DNA from: Squalus acanthias
Lineage: Eukaryota
NCBI GenBank assembly: GCA_030390025.1
Contig: JASTWF010000334.1
Location: 372,001-436,000, forward strand
Direction of reading: 5' to 3'
Length of the DNA stretch: 64,000 nt
Both the position numbers and the translations under genes were made by a program. Under the pieces are notes generated by a model. It was given only the letters and a program-made list of their open reading frames with translations, was not told where the DNA came from and searched no databases. The stretch's first letter is position 1. Each line of letters begins with the position of its first letter. Below are positions 8,701 to 57,667 of this stretch, in pieces.

Positions 8701-9800
8701 GAGCCTTTAGGCTTGTTTTATTAACACCCTTTGTCCTTTTAGACTTATGATTTAGTATGGCCTTTTGTGTTTCTTGCCTTTGTTTACTCGGATTTCCCTT
8801 ATTGTTTCTCACCCTTCTAACATTTGTTTCTGACTGCATATTACTTCCCCCTGTTTCGCTACATAGGTTCCCATTCCCCTGCCATATTAGTTTAAATCCT
8901 CCCGAACTGCCTTAGCAAATATTACCCCGAGGACATCGGTTCCAGTCCTGCCCAAGTGCAGACTGTCCCTTTTGTACAGGTCCCACTTCCCCCAGAACTG
9001 GTTCCAATGCCTCAGGTATTTGAATCCCTCCCTCCTGCACCACTGCTCAAGCCACGTATTTAATCTTGCTATCCTGTTCATGCTACTCTGATTAGCACGT
9101 GGCACTGGTAGCAACCCAGAGATTACTACCTTTGAGGTCCTACTTTTCAATTTAGCTCCTAGCTCCCTAAATTCTGCTTGTAGGACCTCTTCCCGCTTTT
9201 TACCTATATCGTTGGTACCTACATGCATCACGACAGCTGGCTCTTCACCCTCCCTTTCCAGAATGTTCTGCAGCCGCTCCGAGACATCCTTGACCCTTGC
9301 ACCAGGGAGGCAACATACCATCCTGGAATCTCGGTTGCAGGCCACAGAAACTCCTGTCTATTCCCCTTACAATTGAGTCCCCTATCACTATAGCTCTACC
9401 ACTCTTTTTCCTGCCCTGCTGTGCAGCAGAGTCAGCCATGGTGCCATGAACCTGGCTGCTGGTGCCTTCCCCTGGTAGGTCATTTCCCCCAACAGTATCC
9501 AAAATGGTATATCTGTTTTGGAGGGAGACCACCGCAGGGGACTCCTGCACTACCTTCCTGATATTGCCCTGCCTCTTGGTCAGCCATTTACTGTCTGACC
9601 TAGCCTTTACCCGCGGTGTGTTTAACTCACTAAATGAGTAATCCACAAAGTTCTCGGCATCATGGATGCTCCAGAGTGAGTCCATCCGCAGCTCCAGTGC
9701 CGCCATGCGGTCCGTCAGGAGCTGCAGCTGGACGCACTTCCTGCACACATAGTTGTCAGGGACACTGGAAGTGTCCCTGATTTCCCACATAGCACAGGAG
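5800..9800 (-). mobile_element. CR1 LINE copy 1: most of ORF1, ORF2 and the (TTTCTATG)n tail; 5' end missing
   Basis: ORF1 pieces 9245-9790 and 8887-9345 (CxxC, GDS/GTND/HL esterase). APE endonuclease 7898-8839 (LNARS, ITETW, YRPP, GDFN, SDH). RT 5905-7911 (PQGSVLGP, FADD). Confidence 0.97.
5905..8839 (-). pseudogene. CR1 ORF2 (APE endonuclease + reverse transcriptase), disrupted
   Basis: Stop at ~7898-7900 and a frame change near 7860 split EN from RT. Motif-A Asp is replaced (YLNFQKAF). Confidence 0.93.
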
Positions 9801-11680: not shown

Positions 11681-12396
11681 TCAATTGATTGAAGTTACCC
11701 ATCACAATTACCTTCCACTTTTCACATCACCTTTTAATCTGCAGTCAACCCCTAATGTTCATTCATTGAGATCTAACCAAGGCAGTTCATTGTGTAACGT
11801 TTCACCTCCCACAGCATCAACTTGTTAACTTCCTCTGTGTCCCTGATATAAAGCCACATGATCTCCAGATAGCAATTCTATCTAAATTAAATTAAACTGA
11901 ATATACACACATAAATATTAGCAGTGGTCTGTCATTATGATAAATCTGTCAGTGTGGGCGTGGTCACTTTGCAGTGATGTGGACTGCAACATCTGTATTG
12001 ACATCAGCTGTATGGATAAAGGTTGGGGAGAAGAGGGGAAACAATGCCAGATAGCCCACAGAACATTCAACCACAATACCAGCCCAGTGTCAGCTGATGC
12101 ACAGAAGCTGCTGAAACTTCAATCTGGTGGTTTGAAGCCATTGAACCCCCATGAGATTGTTCCCCAGTATCCAGTGCCAGCGTCCCACTATTCACTTAAT
12201 CCACAGTGAAGTTTGGAGTCAGTCCATATCACAAACTCATGGACTTATAACAGCAGGTTGTATGTTTTATTGTTCACCTTTAGCAAAAGAACAGAATGTT
12301 TCAACATTAAACATATTACATGGAGCGACAGAACTGAATATAGTCAATGTGAAAAGGTGATAAACAAAAAATGGTCGGTTTTATTTTTATTTGAAG

Positions 12397-13213
12397 TTGT
12401 ACTGCCGAGCACTGGCTCCCGGCAAGCATCTTGTCTCCATACAGTCGCAAGAACAGATCGAGTTCATTGGACAGATGATGGGCTGGATTTTCTGACCCCC
12501 ACGGGTGTGTACGAGATGTGTACGCACCTGTTGGAGCCTCGCTAGAGCCGGTTTCAGGCGTGCGAAGCACATGCGCTAAAACCTGGCACTTGCGATCTGT
12601 CAAGAATCCTCTTGACAGATCCACCGCCTGCCCAGGAGAAGGACCTCCGCGGGTGGAGAGTTCCGCTTTCTGCAGAACCTCCGCCCGCTGAAAACCTTTA
12701 AAAATCTTACGCCGTGTAAGGCCTGCTTTTACCAGCATAAGAGTTTAAAAAAATAAAAAAATAAAAATTTTCACTCATTTATAATTAAAAAATACTTTAA
12801 AAAAAGGTAAGTTTATTTTTAGACCCATAAAAAACTTTAATTATTTTTTTCAAAAAATTACATTTTTGTTTAAAATATTTAATTTAATGTCATTTTAACT
12901 AATTTCAAATACATGATTTAAAAAAAAATTATTTAATGTTTAACTGTTTTTAAATGTGATCCCCATTCATACTTTTGACAGATCTGTGCGTAGAGACCTG
13001 TCAAAAGTGTGAAGGGGGATTCCCTTCTTTGATTGGTTCCCCAGGGCCCATGTGATCCCAGGGACCTCTGCGCAGACCAGGAGAGGCCCAGGATCGGAAG
13101 TGTCAGGACCGACATCTGCCCGCAGGAAGCCTCTGATCGGAAATTCAGGGCCGATTTATGCAACAGAACAATCAGATCCTCCGACTTGAATCGGTTTGAC
13201 TGACTTATACAAG
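12397..13213 (+). pseudogene. Dead duplicate of lectin exon A, split by a MITE: LYCRALAPGKHLVSIQSQEQIEFIGQMIYATEQSDPPT*IGLTDLYK
   Basis: 12397-12479 plus 13156-13213 gives exactly 141 nt after removing the insertion and one GAT copy. TGG->TGA at 13187-13189 and donor GT->TT. Flanking intron is homologous to that of 31242-31382. Confidence 0.92.
12480..13152. mobile_element. Non-autonomous PIF/Harbinger-type element (673 bp) inserted in the pseudo-exon
   Basis: Imperfect TIRs GGGCTGGATTTTC / GAAATTCAGGGCC, 3-bp TSD GAT, AT-rich centre, no coding capacity. Confidence 0.8.
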
Positions 13214-13234
13214 TTAATGTTGTCTGAGTTGTTA

Positions 13235-14640
13235 GAATAGAATCTTACAGCACCGAAGGAGGCCATTCGGCCCGTCATGCCTGTGTCAGCTCTTTGAAAG
13301 AGCTGTCCAATGTAGTCCCACACCCTGCTTTTTCCCCATAACTCTGCAAATCAGTCTTCTTCAAGTATATGTCCAATTTTGAAAGTTCCTTATGGAATCC
13401 GATTTCACCACCCTTTCAGGTAATACATTCCAGATCTTAACCCTCTGTGTGAAGAAATTTCTCCTCATTTCCCCTCTCGTTCTTTTGCCAATTATTTTAA
13501 ATCTATGACATTTGATTACCGAACCACTTGCCAGAGGAAATAGTTTCTCCCTAGTTGCTCTATCAAAACCCCTCATAATTTTGAATACCTCTATTAGATC
13601 TCCCCTTAACCTTCTCTGCTTGAAGAAGAACAATCCCAGCTTCTCCAATCTCCCCACATAACTGAACTCCCCCATCCCTGGTAAACCTCCTCTGAACACT
13701 CTCCAGGGCCTCGACATCCTTCCTTAAGTGTGGTGCCCAGAGTTGCCCACAATACTCCAGCTGAGGCCTAACCAGAGATTTGTAAAGGTTTAGCATGACT
13801 TTCTTGTTTTTGTATTCAATGCCCCTATTTACAAAGCCAAATATCCCATTCGCTTTCTTAACTGCCTCATCAACCTGCCCTGCCACCTTCAAGGATTTGT
13901 GAAGATGCATCACCAGATCCCTCTGTTCTTCCACCCCCCTCAAAATAGCACCGTTTAGATTATACTGCCCCTCCACGTTGTTTCACCCAAAGTGCATCAC
14001 TTCACACTTATCCGCATTAAATTGCATCTGCCATGTGTCTGCCCATTTCACCAATCTGTCTATGTCCTCCTGAAATTGCTACTATCATGTTCGCTATTTA
14101 CTATAAGTTTTGTACCATCCGCAGACTTTCAAATTGTACTCCCTATGCAAGTCCTCGGTCTAGAAATTCATCTTGGGCGCAGGCGTAAAACAGGCGGTAT
14201 TGGATCGGCCGCCCGTTATACGCGAAGCCTGATAATCAGTTCCATCGACTGCAACAGAAGTGAATATCAGGCGCGGTGTATAATTGGCGGCCGATCCGAT
14301 ACCGCCTGTTTCGCGCCACCGCCCGAGATGAATTTCTAGGCCCTGGTCATTTATATACAACAAGAAAAGCAATGGTCCTAATACCGATCCCTGGGGGACC
14401 CCACTGCATACTTCTCTCCAGTCAGAAAAACATCGCTGCGGGACCTTATCGAAAGCCTTCTGAAAGTCCAAATACACCACATCCACTGTTTCTCCCTTAT
14501 CTATTCTACCAGTTACATCCTCAAAAAATTCCAGTAGATTAGTCAGGCATGATTTCCTATTTGTAAATCCATGTTGACTTTGTCCGATCCTGTCACTGTT
14601 TTCCAAGGGCTCTGCTATTACATCTTTTATAATGGACTCT
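13235..14640 (-). mobile_element. CR1 3' fragments co-duplicated with the lectin exon. Interrupted by a MITE and by the Harbinger; continues at 18816-19045.
   Basis: ORF2 peptides 13361-13976 and 14160-14606. ataatggactc|tag...tag|cattttgccc restores continuous CR1 sequence. Confidence 0.85.
14157..14342. mobile_element. 186-bp palindromic Harbinger-type MITE
   Basis: TIRs GGTCTAGAAATTCATCT / AGATGAATTTCTAGGCC extend into arms of ~70 bp. 3-bp flanks CTC/CTG. Confidence 0.88.
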
Positions 14641-15140
14641 AGGGGGGAAAAATTCAGTTGGTTGCGCCTCCCGTTAGCGCCTTAAGAGGGCGCTAATGGG
14701 GCGCAAAGCAGCTAGCGCCCGGGCGCAGCGATGTTTGCGCCGCTCGCGAACTTAACTAGACATTTTGCGGCGGCGCTAAACTTTATCGCCGCGATCTCCT
14801 GCGCACGCAGATTGTGACGTCATACGAGAGTGCAACACCCTTGTGGCGCCCCGGAGCAGAATTTCAGTGGCGCCCCCATCCTTACCACCTGGCGCATCCA
14901 ACGACCGGTAGAGTGGAACGCTATCAATCGCTGTGGGGCTGGGGGGGGGTGCTATTTAAAGGGGGCCTCTTCCTCTCTTTCTCTGTGGTTGACATTTTTG
15001 CACCACTCGTTCTGAGAGAGAGAGAGAGATGATTCGGAGAGAGAGAAAGAGAGACTTCTGCATTGAGTCAACGCTGTGTGAGGTAGTTTTGGCTACTCAT
15101 CCTAACTTCGCTGGTACTTTGGTTTCTGGCCTTCATAACT

Positions 15141-16171
15141 TTGCTTGCTAAGAGATATGGGGGCTGCACAGATGGGGGGCGTCGTCCTGCGCCAGCTGAA
15201 TCGAGGAGACAGAGACGCAGAGAGAGAGTGGCAATGATGGCCAGATGGAGGAGGGCCAACAGGCGTCTGTACAGGAGAGCTTACCCTCCCAGGGTATATC
15301 GTGAACAGCTCTCCTACATTCATATGTCTGAGGAGCAGTGTCTGCGAAGGCTGCGCTTCAGCAAGGAGGTGGTCACTGAGCTCTGCCACCTGCTGCAGCC
15401 AGATCTGCAGCCTCTACTGAGGACCAGGACATCTCTGTCAGTGGCAGTGAAGGTCACAGTGGCTCTGAACTTTTATGCTACTGGCTCATTTCAATCTGCT
15501 GTTGGGGACATCGCCAATATCTCCCAGTTCGCGGTGCATTGCTGCATCCGGAAGGTCACAAATGCCCTCTTTAAAAGGAGATGAGAGTTCATCTCTTTCC
15601 CCATGACCCCAGACAAGCTGCAAGAACGCACTCTGGGCTTTGCGAGGATAGCGGACTTCCCCATGGTGCAGGGCGCCATTGACTGCACGCATGTGGCTTT
15701 GCGTGCTCCGCATGAGAATGCAGAGGATTTCCGGAACAGAAAGGGGTTCCATTCCTTGAATGTTCAGTTGGTCTGTGACTTGCTGTCAATGCCCACTATC
15801 CTGGCAGCTGCCACGATGCTTTCATCCTGCGCCAGACTACTGTGGCAGAACTTTTCGAGGCACCGCATCAGCCAGTTGGTTGGCTTCTCGGGGACAAGGG
15901 GTATCCACTGAGCACCTGGCTGATGACACCTGCTCCGTACGCCCAACACCCCTGCTGAGCTGCGGTACAACGAGAGCCATCAAGCTACCAGGAACATCGT
16001 GGAGCACACAATCGGCGTGCTCAAGCAACGGTTCCGCTGTCTCGACCATTCTGGATGAGCCCTGCAGTACTCGCCTGAGCGAGTTTCCAACATCGTAGTT
16101 GTGTGCTGCATGCTGCATAACATGGCAATCCTCAGGACCCAGCCAATGCCACCAGGCCTTGGAGCACCACC

Positions 16172-16202
<31 letters not shown>

Positions 16203-16301
16203 GAGGAGGATAATCAGCAGCAGCACCAAGGCGTGAGGACAGCCCACAATGGTGAAACTGCAAGGGCCGTCCGTCAGCGGCTGATAGCAAGCCGCTTCTA
16301 G
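15141..16301 (+). pseudogene. Harbinger (HARBI1-like) DDE transposase, disrupted
   Basis: Motifs [71 protein letters not shown]. Stops at 15582 and ~16057, deletion/frameshift at ~15780, frameshift at ~15932. Start codon uncertain. Confidence 0.93.
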
Positions 16302-16612
16302 GCCCCTGCTGTGGAAATGGCTTCTGCCATTGAGAACAGCATGAATGAACCCAACACGCAACCCCTAAGCCGGCCAAGGCACCAATGATTCCAAACCCCA
16401 AACATGTATATTTTGAGTACCAAAACTTATTTATTTTACAAACTCTGTGTGTGTCATTTCTTCATGACAAACTCATACAAATAAACACAAAAAAACAGTC
16501 ATTACCATAACTGGTTCTCACAACCTGGAGATCATGTGCAAAACACTCAACAAAAGTTTGACCTCGAACCTCGGCCTTTAATAAAAAAATGACCAGCATT
16601 TTGTCACACCTC

Positions 16613-18456
16613 CTACATCGAGGGTGAACTCCTTCCCGTGTGCCCTTCCCCGCTTCTTACCCTACTGCTCCTCCGCAATGGGACCTCAGTGGCTGCAGCA
16701 AGGCTGGTGGAAGGCTGCTGACTGTCAGGCCCTGACAATGCAGATGCCCTTGAGGGACGGCCTCGACCAGTTCTGGGCCTGGAGGGCCCGGCTGCAGACT
16801 GCACCAACTCTGCATGGGCGGCAGCAGTCTGTCCTACAGGCGGTGGCAACTGCAGTGGAGAAGTGACAGTGGTGGCAGCAGGAATGCTGTCATCTTGAGC
16901 GAGGACAGCAACTCCCTGCTCGACCGGCACACTGGCACTCCCACGGGGCAGCACCTCAGCATCCGGAGCAATCTGCTGGAGCACAGATTGCTGGCCTGCT
17001 GCGGCGCGGTGAGAGCCCCGGGGAAATGTGAACGAACCAGCGAGGATGGCAGCAGACAGTGCTCGCGTGGCCTCAATCTGAGTCTGCATGAGAGCAGTCT
17101 GAGATTGAATTGCAGCACTGAGCTTCAGTGTCGCATCCGCCTGCGCTGCAGCGAAGTGCTCCACACTACTTGCCAGTGCTTCAATGCATTCGGGCACCCT
17201 ACCCACTGCAGCCATGAGCTCAGTGTGCATGCCCACCGCCTGGGTGTTCATTTCCGCGATCAGCCGCTCCTCCTCTGCGTCCAGTGCAGCAGGACTCGCT
17301 GGCATACTCTCCCTCTGGGGAGAAGGTCCCCGAGCTTCCCTACCCCCATCGCGTTGCTGCAGCTCGCTGGGTCCTGGAGCTTCACCCTCATCAGACCCTT
17401 CCCCCCTGCTCCCCTCCAGGGAAGGCGTGTTCCCAGTGTCGGCATGGGCTTCCTCGGGAGAGGGTGGCACTGATGCTCCGGCTTCCTCTTCCTCCTCGGC
17501 TGCAGCTTCACTCCCACTGGCAGCTTCAGGGCCCGTCTCCTCAGCTGGTGAATCACCAGCTGAAAGCAGGGAGGTACAAGAGTGGCTTTAGCGTGAGGAC
17601 AGGGTGGCAGTAAGGGAGGAATAAGTGCAGCGAGTTAGTAAGTTGGATTGAAAGTGTCAAAGGCTGGTGTTGTGAGGGACAAGTGGAAGGACAGAGGACA
17701 AAAAGGTGATGACCTTACCATTGCTGTCCAGAACGGGGTCGGCGTCTCCAGTGGCGACGGGACCGATCACCCGGCTTGCCACAATCCTGTGGACGCGCTC
17801 CTCAAGATCGCTGAGGGGTTGCAGCTGAGGCCGCCCTCCACCTGTCCGTTGCTGCTGTCTCCTATTATGCGCCAGCTTGGCTTGCAAGAAAAAGGACGGC
17901 GTCTGAGTAAACATACAGCCATGGTCTTGCCTGATGTGCCTCCCATAGGTGAATAGCCCTTACTGTATACAGCCATGGTCTTGCCTGATGTGCCTCCCAT
18001 AGGTGAATAGCCCTTACTGTATACAGCCATGGTCTTGCCTGATGTGCCTCCCATAGGTGAATAGCCCTTACTGTATGCAAAGTATGGAATGTGTGTGTGT
18101 GCTTCATGAAAGGGCCATAGGTGTTGGATGAGTGTTGTTAATTGTGGTTTTAAGACCCTCTGGCCATAGAGTGAGGTTGAGATGGAGGGATGGAGAGGTA
18201 TTGCAAAAAAGCCACTCACCCTGACGACCCGAGTGAGGTCGTTGAACTTTTTCCGGCATTGGACATGGGTCCTGGGCACCATGCTCCTGGAGGAGACGCG
18301 CTGAGCCACCTCCCTCCACACTCTTCTGTAGTCGCGCGGCAAAGGCCTCCTGCCACTCTCTGGGTACAGTATTGCTCTTCGGCGCTCCACCGCGCCAACC
18401 AGAGCATCCAAGGCCCGCTCGATGAAGTGCTCAGCTTGTTCTCTCACCCTCTCCAT
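16613..18456 (-). CDS. Harbinger Myb/SANT-like DNA-binding protein, 3 exons (18456-18220, 17881-17719, 17559-16613; ~448 aa)
   Basis: Exon 1 F....L..LV..V...W.EVA.....QCRKKFNDL|gtgagt. Exon 2 AHNRRQQQRTGGG..|gtaag. Exon 3 follows ctttcag| in frame to TAG. The exon-2 acceptor reads ttgcaa rather than ttgcag, so it may be inactive. Confidence 0.8.
17914..18075. repeat. 54-bp unit tandemly triplicated in intron 1 of the Myb gene
   Basis: TACAGCCATGGTCTTGCCTGATGTGCCTCCCATAGGTGAATAGCCCTTACTGTA x3. Confidence 0.95.
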
Positions 18457-31241: not shown

Positions 31242-31382
31242 CTGTACTGCCAAGCACTGGCCCCAGGCGGGCATCTTGTCTCCATTCACTCGGATATACA
31301 GAACATGTTCATTGGAGAGGTGATAAATGAAATAGACCCAACAGATTCTCCGGCTTGGATCGGTTTGAATGACTTATACAAG
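31242..31382 (+). CDS. C-type lectin domain gene, internal exon A (141 nt, phase 0/0): LYCQALAPGGHLVSIHSDIQNMFIGEVINEIDPTDSPAWIGLNDLYK
   Basis: T-rich acceptor ...ttttatttaaag| and donor |gtaacg. Open frame with CTLD helix-1 Cys, HLVSIHS and WIGLND motifs. Confidence 0.93.
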
Positions 31383-31404
31383 GTAACGTTGTCTGAGTTG
31401 TTAG

Positions 31405-33464
31405 AATAGAATCATAGAATCTTACAGCACATAATGAGGCATTCAGCCCATCATACCTGTGCCAGCTGTTTGAAAGAGCTGTCCAATTTAGTCCCACACG
31501 CCATAACCCTGCAAATTAGTCCTCTTCAAGTACATGTCCAATTTTGAAAGTTCATATGGAATCTGACTCCACCACCGTTCCAGATCTTAACAGCCCTTTG
31601 TGTGAAAAAATGTCTCCTCATTTCCCCCTAGTTATTTTGTCAATTATTTTAAATTAATGACCTTTGGTTACCGACCCACATGCCAGAAGAAACAGTTTCT
31701 CCCTACTCTCTCTATTAAAACCCCTCATAATTTTGAATACCTCTATTAGGTCTCCCCTTAACCTGCTCTGCTCTAAGGAGAAGAATCCCTGCTTCTCCAA
31801 TCTCTCCACATAACTAAACTCCATGATAAACCTCCTCTGTACCCTCTCCAGGGCCTTGATATCCTTCCTTAAAGTTTAGCGCCCTGAATTGCCCACAATA
31901 ATCCAACTGAGGCCTAACCAGAGATTTGTAAAGGTTTAGCATGACTTCCTTGTTTTTGTATTCAATGCCCCTATTTACAAAGCCACGCATCCCATACGCT
32001 TTCTTAACTGCCTCATCAACCTGGCCTGCCACCTTCAAGTATTTGTGAAGATGCATCACCAGATCCTTCTGTTCTTCCACCCCCCTCAAAATAACACCGT
32101 TTAGATTATACTGCTCCTCCACGTTGTTTCACCCAAAGTGCATCACTCACACTTATCCGCATTAAATTGCACCTGCCATGTGTCTGCATACTTCTCTCCA
32201 GTCAGAAAAACATTGGTTCACCTCTACTCTCTGCCTCATATCCCTTAGCCAAATTTGTACCCAATCTACCATTGTCCCTTTAACATCATGTGCTTCTATT
32301 TTCGGAGTAAGTTTGATATGAAGTACTTTATCAAGAGACTTTTGAAAGTCCATATATATATCTACTGCACTACCTTCATCAACCCTCTATCACTTCATCA
32401 AAGAAGTCAATCAGGTTAGTCAGACACGATTTTCCTTTAACAAATCCTTGCTGGCTGTCCCTTATTCAACCATGTATTCTCCAAGTGAGAATTAATTTTA
32501 TCCTTGATAGTCTCTAGTAGTTTTCCCACCACTGATGTTAGACTGATTGGCCTGCAGTTACGAGGTTTGTCTCTCTCTTCTTTTTTGAACAGGGTTGTAA
32601 CATTTGCAATCCTCCAGTCCTCTGGCAGCACTCCATTATCCAAGGAGGATTGAAAGGTTGTGATCAGAGCTTACGCTATCTTCATCCTAGCTTCCCTCAG
32701 CAACCTAGGATGCATCTCATCTGGACCGGGTGACTTGTTAACTTTGAGTGATGCCAACTTATTTACCACCTTCTTGCTATCCATTTTTATCCTCTTCAAT
32801 ATCTCTACTGCCCCCTCCTCAACTCTGACATTAACTTTATTCTGTTCTTTTATGAAGTCTGATGCAAAGTACTCATTCAGTACCTCAGTCATGCCCTCTG
32901 CCTCCACAGGAAGATTTCCTTTTATGTCCCGAATTGGCCCCACCATTCCTTTAACTATTCTTTTACATTTTATATGTTTATAAAAGATTTTTTGGGTTCC
33001 CATTTATGTTACCCACTAATCTTTTCTCATACTCTCTCTTTGCCCTTCTTATATCCTTTTCCAATTTCCCCCTGCTCTCTCTGTATTCTGCCTGGTTTTC
33101 GACTGTATTCTGTACCTGACATTTTTCATAAACCTTTTTCTGTTTTATTTTAGCCTCTATTTACTTTGTCACCCAGGGAGCTCTAGTTTTGGATGCCCCA
33201 TCTTACCTCCTTATGAGAAGATGCTTGGTTTGTACCCGAACTTTCTCTGCCTTGAAGGCCTGACATTGCTCATTTACTGTTTTCCTGCACAATCTTTGTT
33301 TCCAGTCCACCTGTGCCAGATCCCTTCTCAAATCACTGAAATTGTTTCTCTTTCATTGTGTATTTTCACCTTTGATTTTTCTTTGTCCCATTCCATAACT
33401 ACTTTAAACCTAATAATATTATGATCACTATTACCCAGATGTTCTCCCACTGAAACATACTCCA
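31405..33464 (-). mobile_element. Old CR1 ORF2, continuing at ~35555-35785 and ~43395-43620 around younger insertions
   Basis: ORF2 peptides 31814-33003, EN peptide 35555-35746, (atagaatc)n tail. Confidence 0.85.
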
Positions 33465-45340: not shown

Positions 45341-45452
45341 GAGAGGACTTACTTGTGGGTTGATGGAACTAAATATGATTTCAGAAAGTGGAATGTGGGA
45401 GAACCGAATAATGCCTGTGATAAGGGAGAGGACTGTGCACGAACTAATTCCG
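45341..45452 (+). CDS. C-type lectin domain gene, exon B (112 nt, phase 0/1): ERTYLWVDGTKYDFRKWNVGEPNNACDKGEDCARTNS
   Basis: Acceptor tttctctcccacag| and donor |gtcagt. Contains the WxDG, W..GEPNN and EDC long-loop motifs. Phase is compatible with exon A. Confidence 0.93.
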
Positions 45453-47642
45453 GTCAGTTGGCGCAAATGTGACAGAAACAGTGTTTTATTGGAAATTAAT
45501 TTCAGACAAATGGATAGATCGAATGATGAGATTAATGAGCTTCTAACTAGACTCAGTGTGGTTGAGTTTTAGACTTCGGCAGGGTTCTACTTCCTGCCCC
45601 TTTTGCAGCAGTTTGCAGCCACCTTCCAGGCAAAGCTGTTTATAGAGGAACGTACAAGAGTCACAAAGATTAGATAGAGGAACGTACACTGGGTGTAACA
45701 CTGTAGATAGAGGAACGTACACTGGGTGTAACACTGTAGATAGAGGAATGTACACTGGGTGTAACACTGCAGATAGAGGAACGTACACTGGGTGTAACAC
45801 TGCAGATAGAGGAACGTACACTGGGTGTAACACTGTAGATAGAGGAACGTACACTGGGTGTAACACTGTAGATAGAGGAACATACACTGGGTGTAACACT
45901 GCAGATAGAGGAACGTACACTGGGTGTGACACTGTCGATAGAGGAACGTACACTGGGTGTAACACTGCAGATAGAGGAACGTACACTGGGTGTAACACTG
46001 CAGATAGAGGAACGTACACTGGGTGTAACACTGCAGATAGAAGAACGTACACTGGGTGTAACACTGCAGATAGAGGAACGTACACTAGGTGTAACACTGT
46101 AGATAGAGGAACGTACACTGGGTGTAACACTTTCGATAGAGGAACGTACACTGGGTGTAAAACTGCAGATAGAGGAACGTACACTGGGTGTAACACTGTC
46201 GATAGAGGATCGTACACTGGGTGTAACACTGTCGATAGAGGAACGTACACTGGGTGTAACACTGTCGATAGAGGAACGTACACTGGGTGTAACACTGTAG
46301 ATAGAGGAACGTACACTGGGTGTAATACTGCAGATAGAGGAACGTACACTGGGTGTAACACTGCAGTTAGAGGAACGTACACTGGGTGTAACACTGTAGA
46401 TAGAGGATCGTACACTGGGTGTAACACTGCAGATAGAGGAACGTACACTGGGTGTAACACTGTAGATAGAGGATCGTACACTGGGTGTAACACTGCAGAT
46501 AGAGGAACGTACACTGGGTGTAACACTGTAGATAGAGGAACGAACACTGGGTGTAACACTGTAGATAGAGGAACGTACACTGGGTGTAACACTGCAGGTA
46601 GAGGAACGTACACTGGGTGTAACACTGTAGACAGAGGATCGTACACTGGGTGTAACACTGCAGATAGAGGAACGTACACTGGGTGTAACACTGTAGATAG
46701 AGGAACGTACACTGGGTGTAACACTGTCGATAGAGGAACGTACACTGGGTGTAACACTGTCGATAGAGGATCGTACACTGGGTGTAACACTGTCGATAGA
46801 GGAACGTACACTGGGTGTAACACTGTCGATAGAGGAACGTACACTGGGTGTAACACTGTCAATAGAGGAACGTACACTGGGTGTAATACTGCAGATAGAG
46901 GAACGTACACTGGGTGTAACACTGTCGATAGAGGATCGTACACTGGGTGTAACACTGTAGATAGAGGATCGTACACTTGGTGTAACACTGCAGATAGAGG
47001 AACGTACACTGGGTGTAACACTGTAGATAGAGGATCGTACACTGGGTGTAACACTGCAGATAGAGGAACGTACACTGGGTGTAACACTGTAGATAGAGGA
47101 ACGTACACTGGGATTAACACTGTAGATAGAGGAACGTACACTGGGTGGAACACTGCAGATACAGGAACGTACACTGGGTGTAACACTGTAGATAGAGGAA
47201 CGTACACTGGGTGTAACACTGCAGATAGAGGAAAGTACACTGGGAGTAACACTGCAGATAGAGGAACGTAGACTGGGTGTAACACTGCAGATAGAGGAAC
47301 GTAGACTGGGTGTAACACTGTAGATAGAGGAACGTACACTGCGTGTAACACTGTAGATAGAGGAATGTACACTGGGTGTAACACTGCAGATAGAGGAACG
47401 TAGACTGGGTGTAACACTGTAGATAGAGGAACGTAGACTGGGTGTAACACTGTAGATAGAGGAATGCACACTGGGTGTAACACTGTAGATAGAGGAACGC
47501 CCACTGGGTGTAACACTGTAGATAGAGGAACGTACACAGGGTGTAACACTGCAGATAGAGGAAAGTACACTGGCAGTAACACTTTACATAGAGGCACGTA
47601 CACTGGGTGCAATACTGCAGATAAAGGAATGTACACTGGGTG

Positions 47643-48151
47643 TGATGTAAGAAAACTATTAGGCACTTGGTCTAAGCATCAAACAAAGCTTTAATCAACT
47701 GTTTTACAACATGGAGGTCCAGTTGTGTCCTTTAATTGTTCCTGTTAAGAATATTCTGCGCAAGCTGGGCCTCTATCTGTCCAAAAATGTGCGGGTTAGG
47801 TTGATTTGGCTATGATAAATTGACCCTTAGTGTTAGGGGGGGATTAAATATGTGGGGTTATGGGGATAGGATGGGATATGTTAGGGGGAATTAAATACGT
47901 GGGGTTACGGGGGTCGGGTGGGATATGTGTACTGTGGGGATTAAAGCAGGGACAGGGTACTGGATTTGAATGATCAGCCATGATCGTATTGAATGGTGGT
48001 GCAGGCTCGACGGGCCGAATGGCCTACTCCTGCTCCTAGATTCAATGTTTCTATCTATGTTTCTATTTATACGCTCCCTTGATAGTGCCACCCGCAGGCC
48101 ACTCAGTATTATTTCACAAGTCTTTCTTTCATGACTTACAGAGTGCTGTCA
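47643..48151 (-). mobile_element. Small solo LTR (~225 bp net) interrupted by a 5'-truncated HE1-like SINE (+, ~47779-48066)
   Basis: On the minus strand it reads TGACAG...GTATAAATAG[SINE]AGGCCC...ATTAAA...ACATCA. Flanks GGGTG/GTGTG fit a 5-bp TSD with one mismatch. The SINE part matches 36482-36774. Confidence 0.7.
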
Positions 48152-48730
48152 GTGTGTTACACTGTAGATAGAGGAAGGTACACTGAGTGTAAAACTGCAG
48201 ATAGAGGAAAGTACACTGGATGTAACACTGTAGATAGAGGAACCTACACTGGGTGTAACACTGCAGATAGAGGAACGTACACTGGGTGTAACAGTGTAGA
48301 TAGAGGAACGTACACTGTGTCTAACATTGCAGATAGAAGAACGTACACTGGGTGTAACACTGTAGATAGAGGAACGTACACTGGGTGTAACACTGCAGAT
48401 AGAGGAATGTACACTGAGTGTAACACTGTAGATAGAGGAACGTACACTGGGTGTAACACTGCAGGTAGAGGAACGTACACTGGGTGTAACACTGCAGATA
48501 GAGGAACATACACTGAGTGTAACACTGCAGATAGAGGAACATACACTGAGTGTAACACTGTAGAAAGAGGAACATTCACTGGGTGTAACACTGTAGATAG
48601 AGGAACGTACACTGGGTGTAACACTGTAGAAAGAGGAACGTACACTGGGTGTAGCACTGCAGATAGGGGAACGTACACTGGGTGTGATACTCCAGTTAGG
48701 GGAACGTACACTGGGAGTAACACTGCAGAC

Positions 48731-50186
48731 TGTAGGGGGTGGTGTGTGGGGGTCAGGTTTACCTCTGACTCTGTGAGCGGTTCGAATCGCTCCCATGCCC
48801 CTGGTTCTAGACCTTGGATTTATTTGGGGGTTGTGAACAAAGATGCAGTAGAGATCAGGTTTTGATGAAAGACTTTTGACTTTTATTCAAGAAAAGGTAA
48901 CAAACTTAAAACACACTTAATGCTTAAACACAGGTTGGGGAACACACGGTACAGGCGAGGGAGAAGAACCATATACAAAAAAAAACCTTATCCCTCCCAA
49001 ATCCCACTGCCTAGCTAGGTTTGATTCGAGAAGATCAGGGATAATGCTCACCAAATGACAGTTCTTGACAGTTAAGAGTTAGGGTTTAGAGTCTTTTGAG
49101 TAAAAGATTTCGTAAGGCCCTTTTTGCCGCGAGGTTTCCGATGGTCACTGAGGCGGTCGCTCTGGTCTCTTGAACTGCTGGCTTTCTTTGTTGTATTTCT
49201 TTCTGTTGAACTCTGCCTCTGTTTAAACTGTCTTCTTCCGAGCTGTGGAACTGCCTTCTTGCAGAACTGTGGAACTCCTTGCTGCTTCTTCCTTGCTTCT
49301 CCTGAACTCTGTAACTCCAGCCCTGACTTCTGCTGAAAACAGGCTTTTCGATTGAACTGCAGAACTGCCTTCTGTTGAACTTGAACTGTTTTTACTGTCT
49401 GATGGGCCTTCAATTATACTAAATTGAAGTGGCCTTATCTACCCCAAATCAAATCCCGATCATTGTAAGACCTCGTTAACAGCAACGACTTTACTAGCGT
49501 GTTAACTGGTTTTGTAAATGTGTGAAGTGGTTTCCGGATAGCTCCATCCTGTCGATCTGTTGTTTAATCGGAGTTTGAATTGTCCTCATGTTTTGGGTTT
49601 CTTGACTGGGCCTAGGGCTTCTATCTTTCTGCATGTCTTTAATGGGTTCTGTAAGTGTCAAATGTTTTTTTTTGGAATGGTTTGCATCCTGTCAATCTTC
49701 TTGGCTAATTGGTTTTTGATGGGATGATGGGCTGTGAAGCTGTGTACTGGACGTTTTATTGTTAGGAATTCTGTTTCGACCTGGGGATTTCAAAAGGGTC
49801 TTGGTTTATTCATTTTTTTGGATGTGTTTGTGAGGTTTGGGGTGAGGCTCTTCCTCCTTGGTTGGATTGCAGTGCAAACATCTCCCAGACAGCTTGGCTC
49901 GGTCCCAAAAATCAAAAGCTGTCCATTGCCTCACCACACCCTTTCCTGCAGCCTGTGTTTCTGTGACTGCAGGTTTACCCAATGGCCCTTTTAAAAAGGT
50001 GTCTTATCATCAAAAAGTCATTTTCCTCAGGGTTTTTCTTCCCTGATCGTTAAAAATGTCCAAAACTGAGGTTTTGACCTCAAATTCCTTCATTTAGGCA
50101 CCATCATTCCAAATTCGTGTTGAGATCCAAAACTAACGCCCTTTAGGGTTCTATTCGAGATTCTGGGGGATTTTACGAAGCCTACA
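48731..50186 (-). mobile_element. Solo LTR-like element, family Y (1456 bp), copy 1
   Basis: TGTAGG...CCTACA inverted termini. AATAAA on the minus strand at ~48882-48887. Flanked by duplicated (A)GAC. Confidence 0.75.
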
Positions 50187-52796
50187 GACGGAGGAACGTA
50201 CACTGGGTGAAACACTGTAGCTAGAGGAACGTATACTGGGAGTAACAGTGCAGTTAGAGAAACGTACACTGGGTGTAACACTACAGATAGAGGAACGTAC
50301 ACAGGGTGTAACACAATAGATAGAGTAACATACACTGGCTGTAACACTGTAGATAGAGGACCGTACACTGGGTGAAACACTGTAGATAGAGGACCGTACA
50401 CTGGCTGTAACACTGCAGATAGAAGAACGTACACTGGGTGTAAGACTGTAGATAGAGGACCGTACACTGGGCGTAACACTGCAGTTAGAGGAACGTACAC
50501 TGGGTTTAACACTGTAGATAGAGGAACGTACACTGGGAGTAACACAGTAGTTAGAGGAACGTAAACTGGGTGTAACACTGTAGATAGAGGAACATACACT
50601 GGGTGTAACACTGTAGATAGAGGAACGTACACTGTGTGTAACACTGCAGAAAGAGGAATGAACACTGGGTGTAACACTGTAGATAGAAGAACGTACACTC
50701 GGTGGAACACTGTAGATTGAGGAAAGTACACTGGGTGTAACACTGTAGATAGGGGAACGTACACTGGGTGTTACACTGTAGATAGAGGAAAGTACACTGG
50801 GTGTAACACTGTAGATAGGGGAACATACACTGGGTGTTACACTGTAGATAGAGGAAAGTACACTGGGTGTAACACTGCAGATAGAGGAACGTAAACTGGG
50901 TGTAATACTGCAGATAGAGGAACGTACACTGGGTGTAACACTGCAGATAGAGGAACGTACACTGGGTGTAACACTGCAGATAGAGGAACGTACACTGGGT
51001 GTAACACTGCAGATAGAGGAACGTACACTGGGTGTAACACTGTAGATACAGGAATGTACACTGGGTGTAACACTGTAGATACAGGAATGTACACTGGGTG
51101 TAACACTGTAGATACAGGAATGTACACTGGGTGTAACACTGTAGATACAGGAATGTACACTGGGTGTAACACTGTAGATACAGGAACGTACACTGGGTGC
51201 AACACTGTAGATAGAGAAACGTACACTGGGTGTAACACTGTAGATAGAGGAACGTACACTGGGTGTAACAGTGTAGATAGAGGAACGTACACTGGGTGTA
51301 ACACTGCAGATAGAGGAACGTACACTGGGTGTAACATTGTAGATAGAGGAACGTACACTGGGTGAAACACTGTAGATAGAGGAACGTACACTGGGTGTAA
51401 CACTGTAGATAGAGGAACGTACACTGGGTGTAACACTGCAGATAGAGGAACGTACACTGGGTGTAACACTGTAGATAGAGGAACGTACACTGGGTGTAAC
51501 ACTGTAGATAGAGGAACGTACACTGGGTGTAACACTGTAGATAGAGGAACGTACACTGGGTGTAACACTGCAGATAGAGGAACGTACACTGGGTGTAACA
51601 CTGTAGATAGAGGAACGTACACTGGGTGTAACACTGTTGATAGAGGAACGTACACTGGGTGTAACACTGCAGATAGAGGAACGTACACTGAGTGTAACAC
51701 TGTAGATAGAGGAACGTACACTGGGTGTAACACTGTAGATAGAGGAACGCACACTGGGTGTAACACTGTAGATAGAGGAATGTACACTGGGTGTAACACT
51801 GTTGATAGAGGAACGTACACTGGGTGTAACACTGCAGATAGAGGAACGTACACTGGGTGTAACACTGTAGATAGAGGAATGTACACTGGGTGTAACACTG
51901 TTGATAGAGGAACGTACACTGGGTGTAACACTGCAGATAGAGGAACGTACACTGGGTGTAACACTGCAGATAACGGAACGTACACTGGGTGTAACACTGT
52001 TGATAGAGGAACGTACACTGGGTGTAACACTGTAGATAGGGGAACGTACACTGGGTGTAACACTGTAGATAGGGGAACGTACACTGGGTGTAACATTGTA
52101 GATAGAGGAACGTACACTGGGTGTAACACTGCAGATAGAGGAACGTACATTGGGTGAAACACTGTAGACAGAGGAACGTACACTGGGTGTAACACTGCAG
52201 ATAGAGGAACGTACACTGGGTGTAACACTGCAGATAGAGGAACGTACACTGGGTGAAACACTGTAGACAGAGGAACGTACACTGGGTGTAATACTGCAGA
52301 TAGAGGAACGTACACTGGGTGTAACACTGCAGACAGAGGAACGTACACTGGGTGTAACACTGCAGACAGAGGAACGTACACTGGGTGTAACACTGTAGAT
52401 AGAGGAACGTACACTGGGTGTAACACTGTAGATAGAGGAACGTACACTCGGTGTAACACTGTTGATAGAGGAACGTACACTGGGTGAAACACTGTAGACA
52501 GAGGAACGTACACTGGGTGTAATACTGTAGACAGAGGAACGTACACTGGGTGTAACACTGCAGATAGAGCAACGTACACTGGGTGTAACACTGTAGACAG
52601 AGGAACGTACACTGGGTGTAACACTGTAGATAGAGGAACGTACACTGGGTGTAACACTGTAGATAGAGGAACGTACACTGGGTGTAACACTGTAGAAAGA
52701 GGAACGTACACTGGGTGTAGCACTGCAGATAGGGGAACGTACACTGGGTGTGATACTCCAGTTAGGGGAACGTACACTGGGAGTAACACTGCAGAC

Positions 52797-54252
52797 TGTA
52801 GGGGGTGGTGTGTGGGGGTCAGGTTTACCTCTGACTCTGTGAGCGGTTCGAATCGCTCCCATGCCCCTGGTTCTAGACCTTGGATTTATTTGGGGGTTGT
52901 GAACAAAGATGCAGTAGAGATCAGGTTTTGATGAAAGACTTTTGACTTTTATTCAAGAAAAGGTAACAAACTTAAAACACACTTAATGCTTAAACACAGG
53001 TTGGGGAACACACGGTACAGGCGAGGGAGAAGAACCATATACAAAAAAAAACCTTATCCCTCCCAAATCCCACTGCCTAGCTAGGTTTGATTCGAGAAGA
53101 TCAGGGATAATGCTCACCAAATGACAGTTCTTGACAGTTGAGAGTTAGGGTTTAGAGTCTTTTGAGTAAAAGATTTCGTAAGGCCCTTTTTGCCGCGAGG
53201 TTTCCGATGGTCACTGAGGCGGTCGCTCTGGTCTCTTGAACTGCTGGCTTTCTTTGTTGTATTTCTTTCTGTTGAACTCTGCCTCTGTTTAAACTGTCTT
53301 CTTCCGAGCTGTGGAACTGCCTTCTTGCAGAACTGTGGAACTCCTTGCTGCTTCTTCCTTGCTTCTCCTGAACTCTGTAACTCCAGCCCTGACTTCTGCT
53401 GAAAACAGGCTTTTCGATTGAACTGCAGAACTGCCTTCTGTTGAACTTGAACTGTTTTTACTGTCTGATGGGCCTTCAATTATACTAAATTGAAGTGGCC
53501 TTATCTACCCCAAATCAAATCCCGGTCATTGTAAGACCTCGTTAACAGCAACGACTTTACTAGCGTGTTAACTGGTTTTGTAAATGTGTGAAGTGGTTTC
53601 CGGATAGCTCCATCCTGTCGATCTGTTGTTTAATCGGAGTTTGAATTGTCCTCATGTTTTGGGTTTCTTGACTGGGCCTAGGGCTTCTATCTTTCTGCAT
53701 GTCTTTAATGGGTTCTGTAAGTGTCAAATGTTTTTTTTTGGGATGGTTTGCATCCTGTCAATCTTCTTGGCTAATTGGTTTTTGATGGGATGATGGGCTG
53801 TGAAGCTGTGTACTGGACGTTTTATTGTTAGGAATTCTGTTTCGACCTGGGGATTTCAAAAGGGTCTTGGTTTATTCATTTTTTTGGATGTGTTTGTGAG
53901 GTTTGGGGTGAGGCTCTTCCTCCTTGGTTGGATTGCAGTGCAAACATCTCCCAGACAGCTTGGCTCGGTCCCAAAAATCAAAAGCTGTCCACTGCCTCAC
54001 CACACCCTTTCCTGCAGCCTGTGTTTCTGTGAATGCAGGTTTACCCAATGGCCCTTTTAAAAAGGTGTCTTATCATCAAAAAGTCATTTTCCTCAGGGTT
54101 TTTCTTCCCTGATCGTTAAAAATGTCCAAAACTGAGGTTTTGACCTCAAATTCCTTCATTTAGGCACCATCATTCCAAATTCGTGTTGAGATCCAAAACT
54201 AACGCCCTTTAGGGTTCTATTCGAGATTCTGGGGGATTTTACGAAGCCTACA
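52797..54252 (-). mobile_element. Solo LTR-like element, family Y, copy 2 (offset 4066 bp)
   Basis: Near-identical to 48731-50186, with the same flanking minisatellite variants. Confidence 0.75.
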
Positions 54253-57200
54253 GACAGAGGAACGTACACTGGGTGAAACACTGTAGCTAGAGGAACGTAT
54301 ACTGGGAGTAACAGTGCAGTTAGAGAAACGTACACTGGGTGTAACACTACAGATAGAGGAACGTACACAGGGTGTAACACAATAGATAGAGTAACATACA
54401 CTGGCTGTAACACTGTAGATAGAGGAACGTACACTGGCTGTAACACTGTAGATAGAGGACCGTACACTGGGTGAAACACTGTAGATAGAGGACCGTACAC
54501 TGGCTGTAACACTGCAGATAGAAGAACGTACACTGGGTGTAAGACTGTAGATAGAGGACCGTACACTGGGTGTAACACTGCAGTTAGAGGAACGTACACT
54601 GGGTTTAACACTGTAGATAGAGGAACGTACACTGGGAGTCACACAGTAGATAGAGGAACGTAAACTGGGTGTAACACTGTAGATAGAGGAACATACACTG
54701 GGTGTAACACTGTAGATAGAGGAACGTACACTGTGTGTAACACTGCAGAAAGAGGAATGAACACTGGGTGTAACACTGTAGATAGGGGAACATACACTGG
54801 GTGTTACACTGTAGATAGAGGAAAGTACACTGGGTGTAACACTGCAGATAGAGGAACGTAAACTGGGTGTAACACTGCAGATAGAGGAACGTACACTGGG
54901 TGTAACACTGCAGATAGAGGAACGTACACTGGGTGTAACACTGTAGATAGGGGAACGTACACTGGGTGTTACACTGTAGATAGAGGAAAGTACACTGGGT
55001 GTAACACTGTAGATAGGGGAACATACACTGGGTGTTACACTGTAGATAGAGGAAAGTACACTGGGTGTAACACTGCAGATAGAGGAACGTAAACTGGGTG
55101 TAACACTGCAGATAGAGGAACGTACACTGGGTGTAACACTGCAGATAGAGGAACGTACACTGGGTGTAACACTGCAGATAGAGGAACGTAAACTGGGTGT
55201 AACACTGCAGATAGAGGAACGTACACTGGGTGTAACACTGTAGATACAGGAATGTACACTGGGTGTATCACTGCAGATAGAGGAATGTACACTGTGTGTT
55301 ACAGTGTAGATAGAGGACCGTACACTGGGTGTAACACTGCAGATAGAGGAACGTACACTGTGTGTAACACTGTAGATACAGGAATGTACACTGGGTGTAA
55401 CACTGTAGATACAGGAATGTACACTGGGTGTAACACTGTAGATACAGGAATGTACACTGGGTGTAACACTGTAGATAGAGAAACGTACACTGAGTGTAAC
55501 ACTGTAGATAGAGGAACGTACACTGGGTGTAACACTGCAGATAGAGGAACGTACACTGGGTGCAACACTGTAGATAGAGAAACGTACACTGGGTGTAACA
55601 CTGTAGATAGAGGAACGTACACTGGGTGTAACAGTGTAGATAGAGGAACGTACACTGGGTGTAACACTGCAGATAGAGGAACGTACACTGGGTGTAACAT
55701 TGTAGATAGAGGAACGTACACTGGGTGAAACACTGTAGATAGAGGAACGTACACTGGGTGTAACACTGTAGATAGAGGAACGTACACTGGGTGTAACACT
55801 GCAGATAGAGGAACGTACACTGGGTGTAACACTGTAGATAGAGGAACGTACACTGGGTGTAACACTGTAGATAGAGGAACGTACACTGGGTGTAACACTG
55901 TAGATAGAGGAACGTACACTGGGTGTAACACTGCAGATAGAGGAACGTACACTGGGTGTAACACTGTAGATAGAGGAACGTACACTGGGTGTAACACTGT
56001 TGATAGAGGAACGTACACTGGGTGTAACACTGCAGATAGAGGAACGTACACTGAGTGTAACACTGTAGATAGAGGAACGTACACTGGGTGTAACACTGTA
56101 GATAGAGGAACGCACACTGGGTGTAACACTGTAGATAGAGGAATGTACACTGGGTGTAACACTGTTGATAGAGGAACGTACACTGGGTGTAACACTGCAG
56201 ATAGAGGAACGTACACTGGGTGTAACACTGTAGATAGAGGAATGTACACTGGGTGTAACACTGTTGATAGAGGAACGTACACTGGGTGTAACACTGCAGA
56301 TAGAGGAACGTACACTGGGTGTAACACTGCAGATAACGGAACGTACACTGGGTGTAACACTGTTGATAGAGGAACGTACACTGGGTGTAACACTGTAGAT
56401 AGGGGAACGTACACTGGGTGTAACACTGTAGATAGGGGAACGTACACTGGGTGTAACATTGTAGATAGAGGAACGTACACTGGGTGTAACACTGCAGATA
56501 GAGGAACGTACATTGGGTGAAACACTGTAGACAGAGGAACGTACACTGGGTGTAACACTGCAGATAGAGGAACGTACACTGGGTGTAACACTGCAGATAG
56601 AGGAACGTACACTGGGTGAAACACTGTAGACAGAGGAACGTACACTGGGTGTAACACTGTTGATAGAGGAACGTACACTGGGTGAAACACTGTAGACAGA
56701 GGAACGTACACTGGGTGTAACACTGTAGACAGAGGAACGTACACTGGGTGTAACACTGCAGATAGAGCAACGTACACTGGGTGTAACACTGTAGAGAGAG
56801 GAACGTACACTGGGTGTAACACTGTAGATAGAGGAACGTACACTGGGTGTAACACTGTAGATAGAGGAACGTACACTGGGTGTAACACTGTAGATAGAGG
56901 AACGTACACTGGGTGTAACACTGTAGATAGAAGAACGTACACTGGGTGTAACACTGTAGATAGAGGAACGTACACTGGGTGTAACACTGTAGATAGAGGA
57001 ACGTACACTGGGTGTAACACTGTAGATAGAGGAACGTACACTGGATGTAACACTGTAGACAGAGGAACGTACACTGGGTGTAACACTGCAGTTACAGGTC
57101 TGGAGCAGTGTTCCCAATGGGCTTCACTCTATTTGTACAACATTCACCAGAATGTTATTCATCGTACTTGCCTCTAGCCCTCACTTTACTGATGGTCCAA

Positions 57201-57412: not shown

Positions 57413-57486
57413 GTTTACCCACCAATTGGAATGATGCGCCCTGTGATTTTCAATATCCTTACCTCTGCTCCTACAAACTCCACTGA
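57413..57486 (+). CDS. C-type lectin domain gene, terminal coding exon C: (G)LPTNWNDAPCDFQYPYLCSYKLH*
   Basis: Acceptor ttcttttttcag|. The phase-1 join with exon B completes GGT. Contains WND..C......LC and ends at TGA 57484-57486. Confidence 0.93.
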
Positions 57487-57606
57487 AGTGAGAAGACTCT
57501 GCCGATGCTCCACGGATCCTTTCCAGGAGTGGATTCAGTGCCTCGATTTGTTTGTAGCCGCAGTCACTGCCTGTGGTGACTGGACTGACTTAGTCTCTCA
57601 GCCAAT

Positions 57607-57612: not shown

Positions 57613-57667
57613 TGTAATTGCATCTTGAGCTGTGTGTTTGATGCTGTGTGAGTCTAGTTTATAGCAG

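What the first reader, a model, noticed from the sequence alone, without database searches (positions are those of the whole stretch)
12397..14042. Duplicated lectin exon has diverged faster than its co-duplicated neutral intron
My manual codon comparison gives 28 differences in 141 nt (~20%): about 23 non-synonymous (one is the stop) and 5 synonymous, changing 19 of 47 residues. There are no indels, the structural residues (C, HLVSI, FI, IGL.D) are kept, and changes cluster in helix 2 and the following loop. The co-duplicated CR1 segment (13741-14042 vs ~31887-32187) shows only about 15 differences in ~300 nt. Inference: diversifying selection acted before pseudogenisation, similar to the exon-accelerated evolution known for venom lectins and immune genes. 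The sample is small.
Basis: partly seen in the sequence, partly recalled or inferred. Interest (0 to 1): 0.72.

Follow-up and report, generated by a model that had tools for sequence, protein, structure and literature searches.

The report
Fast-evolving shark lectin family, misleading pair
This broken lectin exon looks fast-evolving mainly because the intron stretch it was compared with was likely overwritten by gene conversion, but the family of about 30 secreted sugar-binding protein genes it belongs to, likely in a shark, does change amino acids faster than silent sites, likely through diversifying selection of the kind known from venom and immune lectins.

Summary
The counts are right: 28 of 141 exon bases differ (22 non-synonymous plus the stop, 5 synonymous), against 14 of 301 in the chosen CR1 segment. 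The baseline is wrong. Against 29 other CR1 copies, that segment has 16 departures shared by both paralogs and 14 private ones; the adjoining 468 sites have 3 shared and 64 private (p=9e-8). The true baseline is 12-14%, so the 5-fold excess falls to 1.6-1.9-fold (p 0.02-0.10). pN is not above pS (p=0.80). Copy A is a long-dead fragment whose private changes hit invariant residues, so 'selection before pseudogenisation' is unsupported. The family tells a different story. In about 30 paralogous secreted C-type lectin genes, 8 disjoint pairs give pN 7.3%, pS 4.5% and non-coding 2.4%. M2a beats M1a with LRT 106, against at most 17 in 14 recombining null simulations. Earlier scan notes described the family and patchy copying between its genes; none shown reported this selection test. 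It is a known kind of evolution in a family for which my searches found no such report.

The parts
11939..12326 (+). Intron-2 stretch upstream of exon A, likely copied in from a group-1 paralog (gene conversion or recombination)
   Evidence: 9-17 differences in 388 nt to 18 group-1 genes, against 0-21 (mean 11.7) among them; about 8 on A's side against 17-28 expected for a long-dead copy (P=0.012 to 7e-6)
12397..12479 (+). Exon 3A, 5' half (dead C-type lectin exon)
   Evidence: AG acceptor; sister to exons B and C in a tree, UFBoot 79
12480..13152 (.). 673-bp dispersed repeat (MITE-like, similar termini, 3-bp target duplication) interrupting exon 3A
   Evidence: best other genomic copies 87-89% identical among 40 scored of 7448 candidates; branch estimate about 4.4% from 5 copies
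13156..13213 (+). Exon 3A, 3' half, with TGA at codon 39 (13187-13189); donor at 13214 reads TT
13232..13740 (-). CR1-type LINE 3' end in intron 3, unconverted part: the valid A/B clock (12-14%)
   Evidence: 32 A-only, 31 B-only, 1 both-different and 3 shared departures in 468 sites
13741..14042 (-).
   Evidence: 4 A-only, 10 B-only and 16 shared departures in 298 sites; no other single copy shares more than 3 of the 16
14144..14355 (.). Second inverted-repeat element inside A's CR1; homology to B ends at about 14433
31242..31382 (+). Exon 3B, open frame with AG/GT sites
   Evidence: PF00059, E=0.00045, 21.4 bits, below the 22.6 cut-off for this 47-aa piece
31401..32187 (-). The same CR1 insertion in B's intron 3
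45341..45452 (+). Exon 4 of gene B (EPN motif)
45636..57098 (.). 33-bp satellite array in intron 4, also present in group-1 paralogs
57413..57486 (+). Exon 5 of gene B (WND motif, stop)

Best explanation
Exon A is a dead exon-3 fragment of a secreted C-type lectin gene whose flanking introns were likely partly overwritten by gene conversion, which makes the exon look accelerated, while the intact members of its roughly 30-gene family have more amino-acid than silent changes, likely through diversifying selection on the sugar-binding surface. Steps. (1) Shown: a CR1 sits at the same point of intron 3 in A, B and C only. Inferred: A split from B/C soon after the insertion, since only 3 of 468 sites are shared departures and each copy is about 7% from the CR1 majority. 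(2) Shown: A carries an insertion, a stop and a dead donor and has no exons 4-5 of its own. Inferred: it died early and then drifted. (3) Inferred from shared departures: 13741-14042 was converted between A and B/C, and 11939-12326 was copied from a group-1 gene. The exon lies between the two tracts, probably shielded by the insertion and indels rather than by selection, leaving a false 'peak of divergence'. (4) Shown: in intact paralogs pN exceeds pS and non-coding divergence, concentrated in helix 2 and in the exon 4-5 segments beside the EPN/QPD and WND motifs. Inferred: selection to bind different glycans, most likely microbial, with conversion shuffling variants between copies.
For: Conversion: (16 shared vs 14 private, against 3 vs 64; p=9e-8). 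Only 1 of 406 pairs of unrelated CR1 copies is as close as A/B in that segment, while in the near part A/B (13.7%) are as far apart as unrelated copies (11.8%). Upstream tract. A's decay; horn-shark homologues carry A's residues at codons 26, 30, 31, 36 and 38, so those differences arose on the B/C side. Family selection: group-1 means pN 0.133, pS 0.066, non-coding 0.045, with pN>non-coding in 120 of 120 and pN>pS in 117 of 120 non-independent pairs. Eight disjoint pairs: N 184/2535, S 35/780 (p=0.006), non-coding 498/21043, CR1 only 238/6776; kappa 2.0 measured in the introns. M0 omega 1.41, M2a omega2 3.6 on 39% of sites, LRT 106. Fourteen recombining null simulations gave LRT at most 17.3 and M0 omega at most 0.70. 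Spliced paralog C contigs appear in 3 of 3 runs.
Against: A residual exon excess remains for the pair (p=0.018-0.029 with pairwise baselines, 0.08-0.10 with the multiple alignment), and the A+(B,C) grouping has only UFBoot 79. In the disjoint pairs pN>pS is not significant at kappa=1 (p=0.10), and is borderline when the 34 multi-hit codons are dropped (p=0.048 at kappa 2.0, 0.088 at 1.7, 0.30 at 1.0). In B vs C, pN (7.9%) is not above pS (9.2%), although both exceed the intron value of 2.5%, which conversion alone could give. In the disjoint pairs pS also exceeds the pooled non-coding rate (p=0.0005), so flanks may be homogenised too. The codon models are my own implementation with fixed relative branch lengths. 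Some 'paralogs' may be alleles on unplaced contigs (g19/g20 differ by 0.3%). No ligand, tissue or pathogen link was tested.
Confidence: 0.82

Rival explanations
1. One reading: A and B are simple co-duplicates, the CR1 segment is a fair neutral clock, and selection drove exon A apart before it died.
For: Counts hold; residual 1.6-1.9-fold excess over the unconverted CR1; differences cluster in helix 2 and are enriched at the family's selected sites (p=0.037).
Against: The clock segment is converted; pN is about pS (p=0.80); A's departures number 12 of 141 against 6.8% expected (p=0.46) and hit invariant residues; the insertion is old.
Confidence: 0.07
2. No selection anywhere: the exon excess in the family comes from gene conversion (exons importing pieces from distant paralogs, flanks homogenised), relaxed constraint and multi-nucleotide mutation.
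For: B vs C shows pS as raised as pN; pS exceeds pooled non-coding divergence; a review warns that conversion can be misread as positive selection (PMC3924837, passages); several family members carry lesions; significance weakens without multi-hit codons.
Against: Conversion and relaxation can bring pN up to pS but not above it; pN/pS is 1.27-1.86 in all 16 variants; dN>dS in 198 of 229 pairs; recombining null simulations fall far short; adjacent double differences are no more frequent in exons (34 of 206) than in introns (66 of 413); Cys, WND and the 3' UTR stay conserved.
Confidence: 0.08
3. A arose as an internal tandem duplication of exon 3 inside one gene and was never a separate functional gene, rather than as the stump of a second gene fused to B.
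For: Only one exon 2 is found upstream, and no exons 4-5 lie between A and B; the 5' part of intron 2 is collinear with paralog C. This variant leaves the conversion and family conclusions unchanged.
Against: The 5' flanks differ from C by 5-9% while the 3' part differs by 2.5-4%, as expected if two genes of different age were fused; the 3' end of exon 2 is unlike C's.
Confidence: 0.3

Closest known systems
RefSeq elasmobranch 'lectin-like' proteins, nearest Heterodontus francisci P0003-P0005 (187 aa; automatic labels 'lectin-like', 'dromaiocalcin-1-like')
   Same: 66-70% identity to exon 3 of paralog C; signal peptide, acidic propeptide ending EKR and a single CTLD; each maps to exons 2-5 of this locus.
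   Different: Names are automatic and no function is tested; the window's copy is broken (stop in exon 2, dead exon 3A).
Accelerated evolution of snake venom C-type lectin-like proteins (habu genome, PMC6062510; passages and one section read)
   Same: Tandem multigene C-type lectin family with raised KA/KS in coding exons.
   Different: Reported mean KA/KS is 0.871 for venom CTLPs and 0.304 for non-venom ones; here mean dN/dS is about 1.4 (0.259/0.189; M0 1.41), by different methods. These genes keep EPN/QPD and WND motifs; nothing here shows a venom role.
Gene conversion between duplicates and the 'peak of divergence' (Fawcett and Innan 2011, PMC3924837; passages)
   Same: Converted flanks make the duplicates look young and leave a divergent island at the exon.
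   Different: In the opsin case selection keeps the peak; here the peak sits on a dead exon, so sequence interruption is the likelier barrier (inferred).
Conger eel skin-mucus galectins congerin I/II (PMC3269628, passages) and the skin C-type lectin of Heterodontus japonicus (seen only as cited in PMC10707392 and PMC8444439)
   Same: Fish defence lectins; congerins diversified sugar specificity by accelerated evolution after duplication.
   Different: Congerins are galectins and two genes. The bullhead shark lectin paper is not held, so its membership of this family is untested.

Membership tests
C-type lectin domain (PF00059) | Profile match and CTLD fold | tested here: met
   Exon 3B alone E=0.00045, 21.4 bits, just under the 22.6 cut-off; full-length homologues carry PF00059; the model of P0003 matches C-type lectin structures at about 23-33% identity, with low confidence in the long loop.
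Ca2+-dependent carbohydrate-binding CTLD | EPN or QPD motif plus WND motif | tested here: met
   B and C have EPN and WND; of 27 exon-4 sequences 14 have EPN, 9 QPD, 1 QPE, 1 QPN and 2 none. EPN=mannose and QPD=galactose as stated in PMC514892 (passages).
Ca2+-dependent carbohydrate-binding CTLD | Actual sugar binding | not testable with these tools
   Needs a glycan array or binding assay.
Elasmobranch secreted 'lectin-like' prepro-CTLD family | Signal peptide, acidic propeptide ending KR, single CTLD on five exons | tested here: met
   Propeptide and KR in 27 of 28 gene models, with g11 reading GKR; signal exon found for g18 by tblastn but not within 10 kb upstream of the window; exon 2-3-4-5 splicing seen for paralog C in contigs.
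Functional member of that family (window locus) | Intact reading frame and splice sites | tested here: not met
   Exon 3A has an insertion, a stop and a TT donor; the only exon 2 found upstream (G000:C2606:371410-371585) has an in-frame stop. Exons 3B-5 are open.
Exon-accelerated (venom-type) evolution, A/B pair | dN above dS and above a valid neutral baseline | tested here: not met
   pN vs pS p=0.80; baseline converted; residual excess borderline.
Exon-accelerated (venom-type) evolution, whole family | dN/dS above 1 in the mature domain with better conserved non-coding flanks | tested here: met
Venom lectin (snaclec) | Expression in a venom gland and toxic activity | not testable with these tools
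   Run tissue is not on record. Structure hits to snaclecs come from a model whose long loop has pLDDT under 50 and carry no weight.
CTLD group VII (REG/lithostathine) | Phylogenetic placement with REG proteins | not tested
   Architecture fits (single secreted CTLD), but PMC514892 places soluble fish CTLDs in a separate group (passages); I built no tree with REG proteins.

The most novel reading that the evidence does not exclude
This shark carries a repertoire of about 30 secreted C-type lectins diversifying faster than snake venom lectins, in which selection plus gene conversion repeatedly swap the mannose-type (EPN) and galactose-type (QPD) motif and remodel the surrounding loops between near-identical genes (g22 EPN vs g23 QPD at 1.2% non-coding divergence, g7/g9 at 2.3%, g11/g12 at 3.1%): an innate anti-glycan repertoire under an arms race with microbes.
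Probability: 0.4. Interest if true: 0.6.

Novelty: new member of a known kind. Interest (0 to 1): 0.38.

Why it matters
As stated, the finding is a clean example of a known pitfall: a converted intron tract used as a neutral clock inflates a 1.6-1.9-fold difference to 5-fold on an exon that was dead for most of its history. The family-level result is the useful part. It gives a cartilaginous-fish innate lectin cluster with strong diversifying selection and EPN/QPD switching among close paralogs, a ready set for testing how sugar specificity evolves and what shark secretions recognise. Five literature searches listed no paper on selection in this family; the library lacks most subscription journals, so this is weak evidence of novelty.

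Tried and rejected
First alignment was one base out of frame and was redone. My first idea that exon A itself was group-1-derived was dropped: the exon groups with B and C and the group-1-like tract ends about 30-70 nt upstream. A subfamily explanation of the shared CR1 departures was rejected, as were slower mutation in that segment (other copies 5.3% vs 6.5%) and CpG effects in the exon (3 of 28 differences). A homologue search with the single 47-aa exon found nothing; the alignment search worked. No branch-wise dN/dS was obtained, so which side changed rests on per-column counts in 25 paralogs. No RNA holder was listed for exon 4 of B. In three runs with the same species label no listed contig matched A or B, only paralogs C and g3 and one intron-containing piece; this is no evidence on expression of A or B. 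The AlphaFold model had mean pLDDT 56 with residues 120-154 unresolved, so selected sites in exon 4 could not be mapped in 3D. The bullhead shark lectin paper is not held. A word search of earlier scan findings for selection in this family returned nothing. No supplements were read.

Full report
Observation. Exon A runs 12397-12479 and 13156-13213, split by a 673-bp dispersed repeat at 12480-13152 with a 3-bp target duplication. Exon B is 31242-31382. They differ at 28 of 141 nt and 19 of 47 residues. Nei-Gojobori counts are Nd 22 of 107 and Sd 5 of 31 with the stop codon set aside, so pN 0.206 and pS 0.161, Fisher p=0.80. The whole shared intron has 72 of 793, the part next to the exon 58 of 492, and the 66 alignable bases upstream 9 of 66. 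Divergence along the intron is heterogeneous (max-chi permutation p=0.009).

Context. The genome holds 33 matches to exon 3 among 41 candidates, 30 of 30 to exon 2 and 30 of 30 to exon 5, clustered on a few contigs. I built 28 gene models. They encode an acidic propeptide ending in KR and one C-type lectin domain. The nearest named proteins are horn-shark 'lectin-like' records, 66-70% identical over exon 3, so the animal is likely a shark. In the window, gene B has exon 4 at 45341-45452 (EPN), a 33-bp satellite intron and exon 5 at 57413-57486 (WND). The only exon 2 found lies just before the window and has an in-frame stop. A has no exons 4-5 of its own. An intact close paralog C lies about 216 kb upstream, and contigs splicing its exons 2-3-4-5 are present in the three runs laid (exons 3-4-5 in 3 of 3, the exon 2-3 joint in 2 of 3). 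The runs are only guessed to be RNA.

The baseline is converted. I aligned the CR1 of A, B and C with 29 other genomic copies, the best 29 non-self loci of 40 scored among 17609 candidates. In 13232-13740 (468 usable sites) 32 departures from the majority are A-only, 31 B-only, 1 differs in both and 3 are shared. In 13741-14042 (298 sites) 4 are A-only, 10 B-only and 16 shared (p=9e-8); both parts remain 7-9% from the majority. No other copy carries more than 3 of the 16 shared bases. Other copies mutate at similar rates in both parts (6.5% and 5.3%), and only 1 of 406 unrelated pairs is as close as A/B in the far part. The segment was therefore exchanged between A and the B/C lineage long after the split, and the A/B split is about as old as the CR1 insertion. 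Against the unconverted part the exon excess is 1.6-1.9-fold, p=0.018-0.097. A second tract lies upstream: 11939-12326 differs from 18 group-1 genes by 9-17 of 388 nt, within their own range (0-21), with about 8 changes on A's side where 17-28 are expected. The exon itself groups with B and C (UFBoot 79). A is thus a mosaic with a divergent exon between two converted tracts, the pattern described for duplicates under conversion (PMC3924837, passages). Here the exon is dead, so interruption of homology rather than selection is the likelier barrier (inference).

Selection on A is unsupported. At the 28 differing bases, A departs from the 25 other paralogs at 12, B at 14 and 2 are unclear; neither count exceeds the per-copy CR1 rate of 32 of 468 (p=0.46 and 0.27). 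A's residues unseen in any other paralog include G10K, H16Q, N21I, D32E and the W39 stop, at columns 84-100% conserved. G10, H16 and W39 are invariant in 12 of 12 elasmobranch homologues. The insertion in A has an estimated branch of 4.4% from five best-hit copies, probably an underestimate, against 7.3% for A since the split. A was therefore broken for at least about 60% of its separate history. The changes at variable helix-2 and loop positions are mostly on the B/C side; helix 2 spans codons 18-31 in the model of P0003.

The family is under diversifying selection. Among 16 group-1 genes (120 pairs, not independent) the mature domain has mean pN 0.133 and pS 0.066, against 0.045 in collinear non-coding flanks; blocks over 20% divergent or under 30 aligned bases were dropped as non-collinear. 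pN reaches 0.19 and 0.17 in exons 4 and 5 while the 3' UTR differs by 1.8%. Eight disjoint pairs give N 184/2535, S 35/780 (p=0.006), non-coding 498/21043 and CR1-only 238/6776; pN exceeds non-coding in 6 of 8 pairs at p<=0.001. One member, g9, has a mutated exon-4 donor. Kappa measured in the introns is 2.0; pN/pS stays 1.27-1.86 over 16 variants, but is not significant at kappa 1 (p=0.10) and is borderline without multi-hit codons (p=0.048 at kappa 2.0). A codon model of my own on 23 genes with a separate tree per exon gave M0 omega 1.41 and M2a omega2 3.6 on 39% of sites, LRT 106 against M1a, with 29 of 138 sites at posterior above 0.95. Left out were g9, g15, g16, g25 and X (lesions or missing exons), B's exon 2, A, and the distant or broken loci. 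Fourteen null simulations with the tree switched every 8 codons gave LRT 0-17.3 and M0 omega 0.41-0.70, against 105.5 and 1.53 for the real data in the same pipeline (22 genes). Against this reading, B vs C has pN 7.9% and pS 9.2% over introns at 2.5% (276 of 10849), and pS exceeds pooled non-coding divergence in the disjoint pairs (p=0.0005, though not CR1 alone, p=0.19), so conversion also shapes these numbers. Conversion cannot by itself lift pN above pS (established reasoning). Exon 4 carries EPN in 14, QPD in 9, QPE and QPN in 1 each and neither in 2 of 27 genes, and the motif differs within pairs only 1.2-3.1% apart in non-coding DNA. Ligands and tissue are unknown; microbial glycans are my inference from the motifs and from fish mucus lectins (PMC3269628, PMC10707392, PMC8444439, passages).

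Comparison and verdict. The process is the known accelerated evolution of multigene lectins; habu venom CTLPs average KA/KS 0.871 (PMC6062510, section read). Searches (listings only) showed no study of selection in this shark family; two searches listed nothing closer. Earlier scan notes described the family, its broken neighbours and patchy copying. The finding as written is largely a baseline artefact on a dead exon; the family-level selection is real with good confidence and is a new member of a known kind. Interest 0.38.

Noticed in passing
window 45636-57098: 11.4-kb array of a 33-bp unit forming intron 4; also found after exon 4 in group-1 and other paralogs. Several frames are stop-free for 600-970 codons and mimic a mucin-like ORF, but the array is intronic.
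   Followed up: partly
window 48730-50180 and 52796-54248: Two copies of a 1.45-kb insert inside the satellite differ at only 5 of 1451 bases: a very recent 4-kb tandem duplication or an assembly duplication.
   Followed up: no
window 5748-9800 and 35813-40311: Two LINE copies about 99% identical (5/516 and 47/3540), sharing about 50 nt beyond the 3' tail repeat, possibly a 3' transduction; the second is absent from paralog C.
   Followed up: partly
window 14640-21620: ORFs resembling Harbinger-type transposase and Myb-like proteins (label recalled from memory, not tested by a call) inside intron 2.
   Followed up: no
G000:C2606:371410-371585 (L064), just before the window: Exon 2 is nearly identical to paralog C's for its first 135 nt and then diverges sharply over the last 40 nt, with a stop and loss of the W-x-x-A-E motif: likely another conversion tract.
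   Followed up: partly
window 57487-57650 and L093-L122: The 3' UTR differs by only 1-5 of about 160 nt across even distant paralogs whose introns are barely alignable, suggesting strong constraint or frequent conversion.
   Followed up: no
L012, L024 (C10:113.9 Mb), L019-L023, L028 (C10:93 Mb), C3630, C3388, C596, C341: The family sits in two clusters on one large contig and on several unplaced contigs; paralog C's exon 5 is on C341, as the spliced contigs indicate, so the assembly is broken in its satellite intron and some copies may be alleles.
   Followed up: partly
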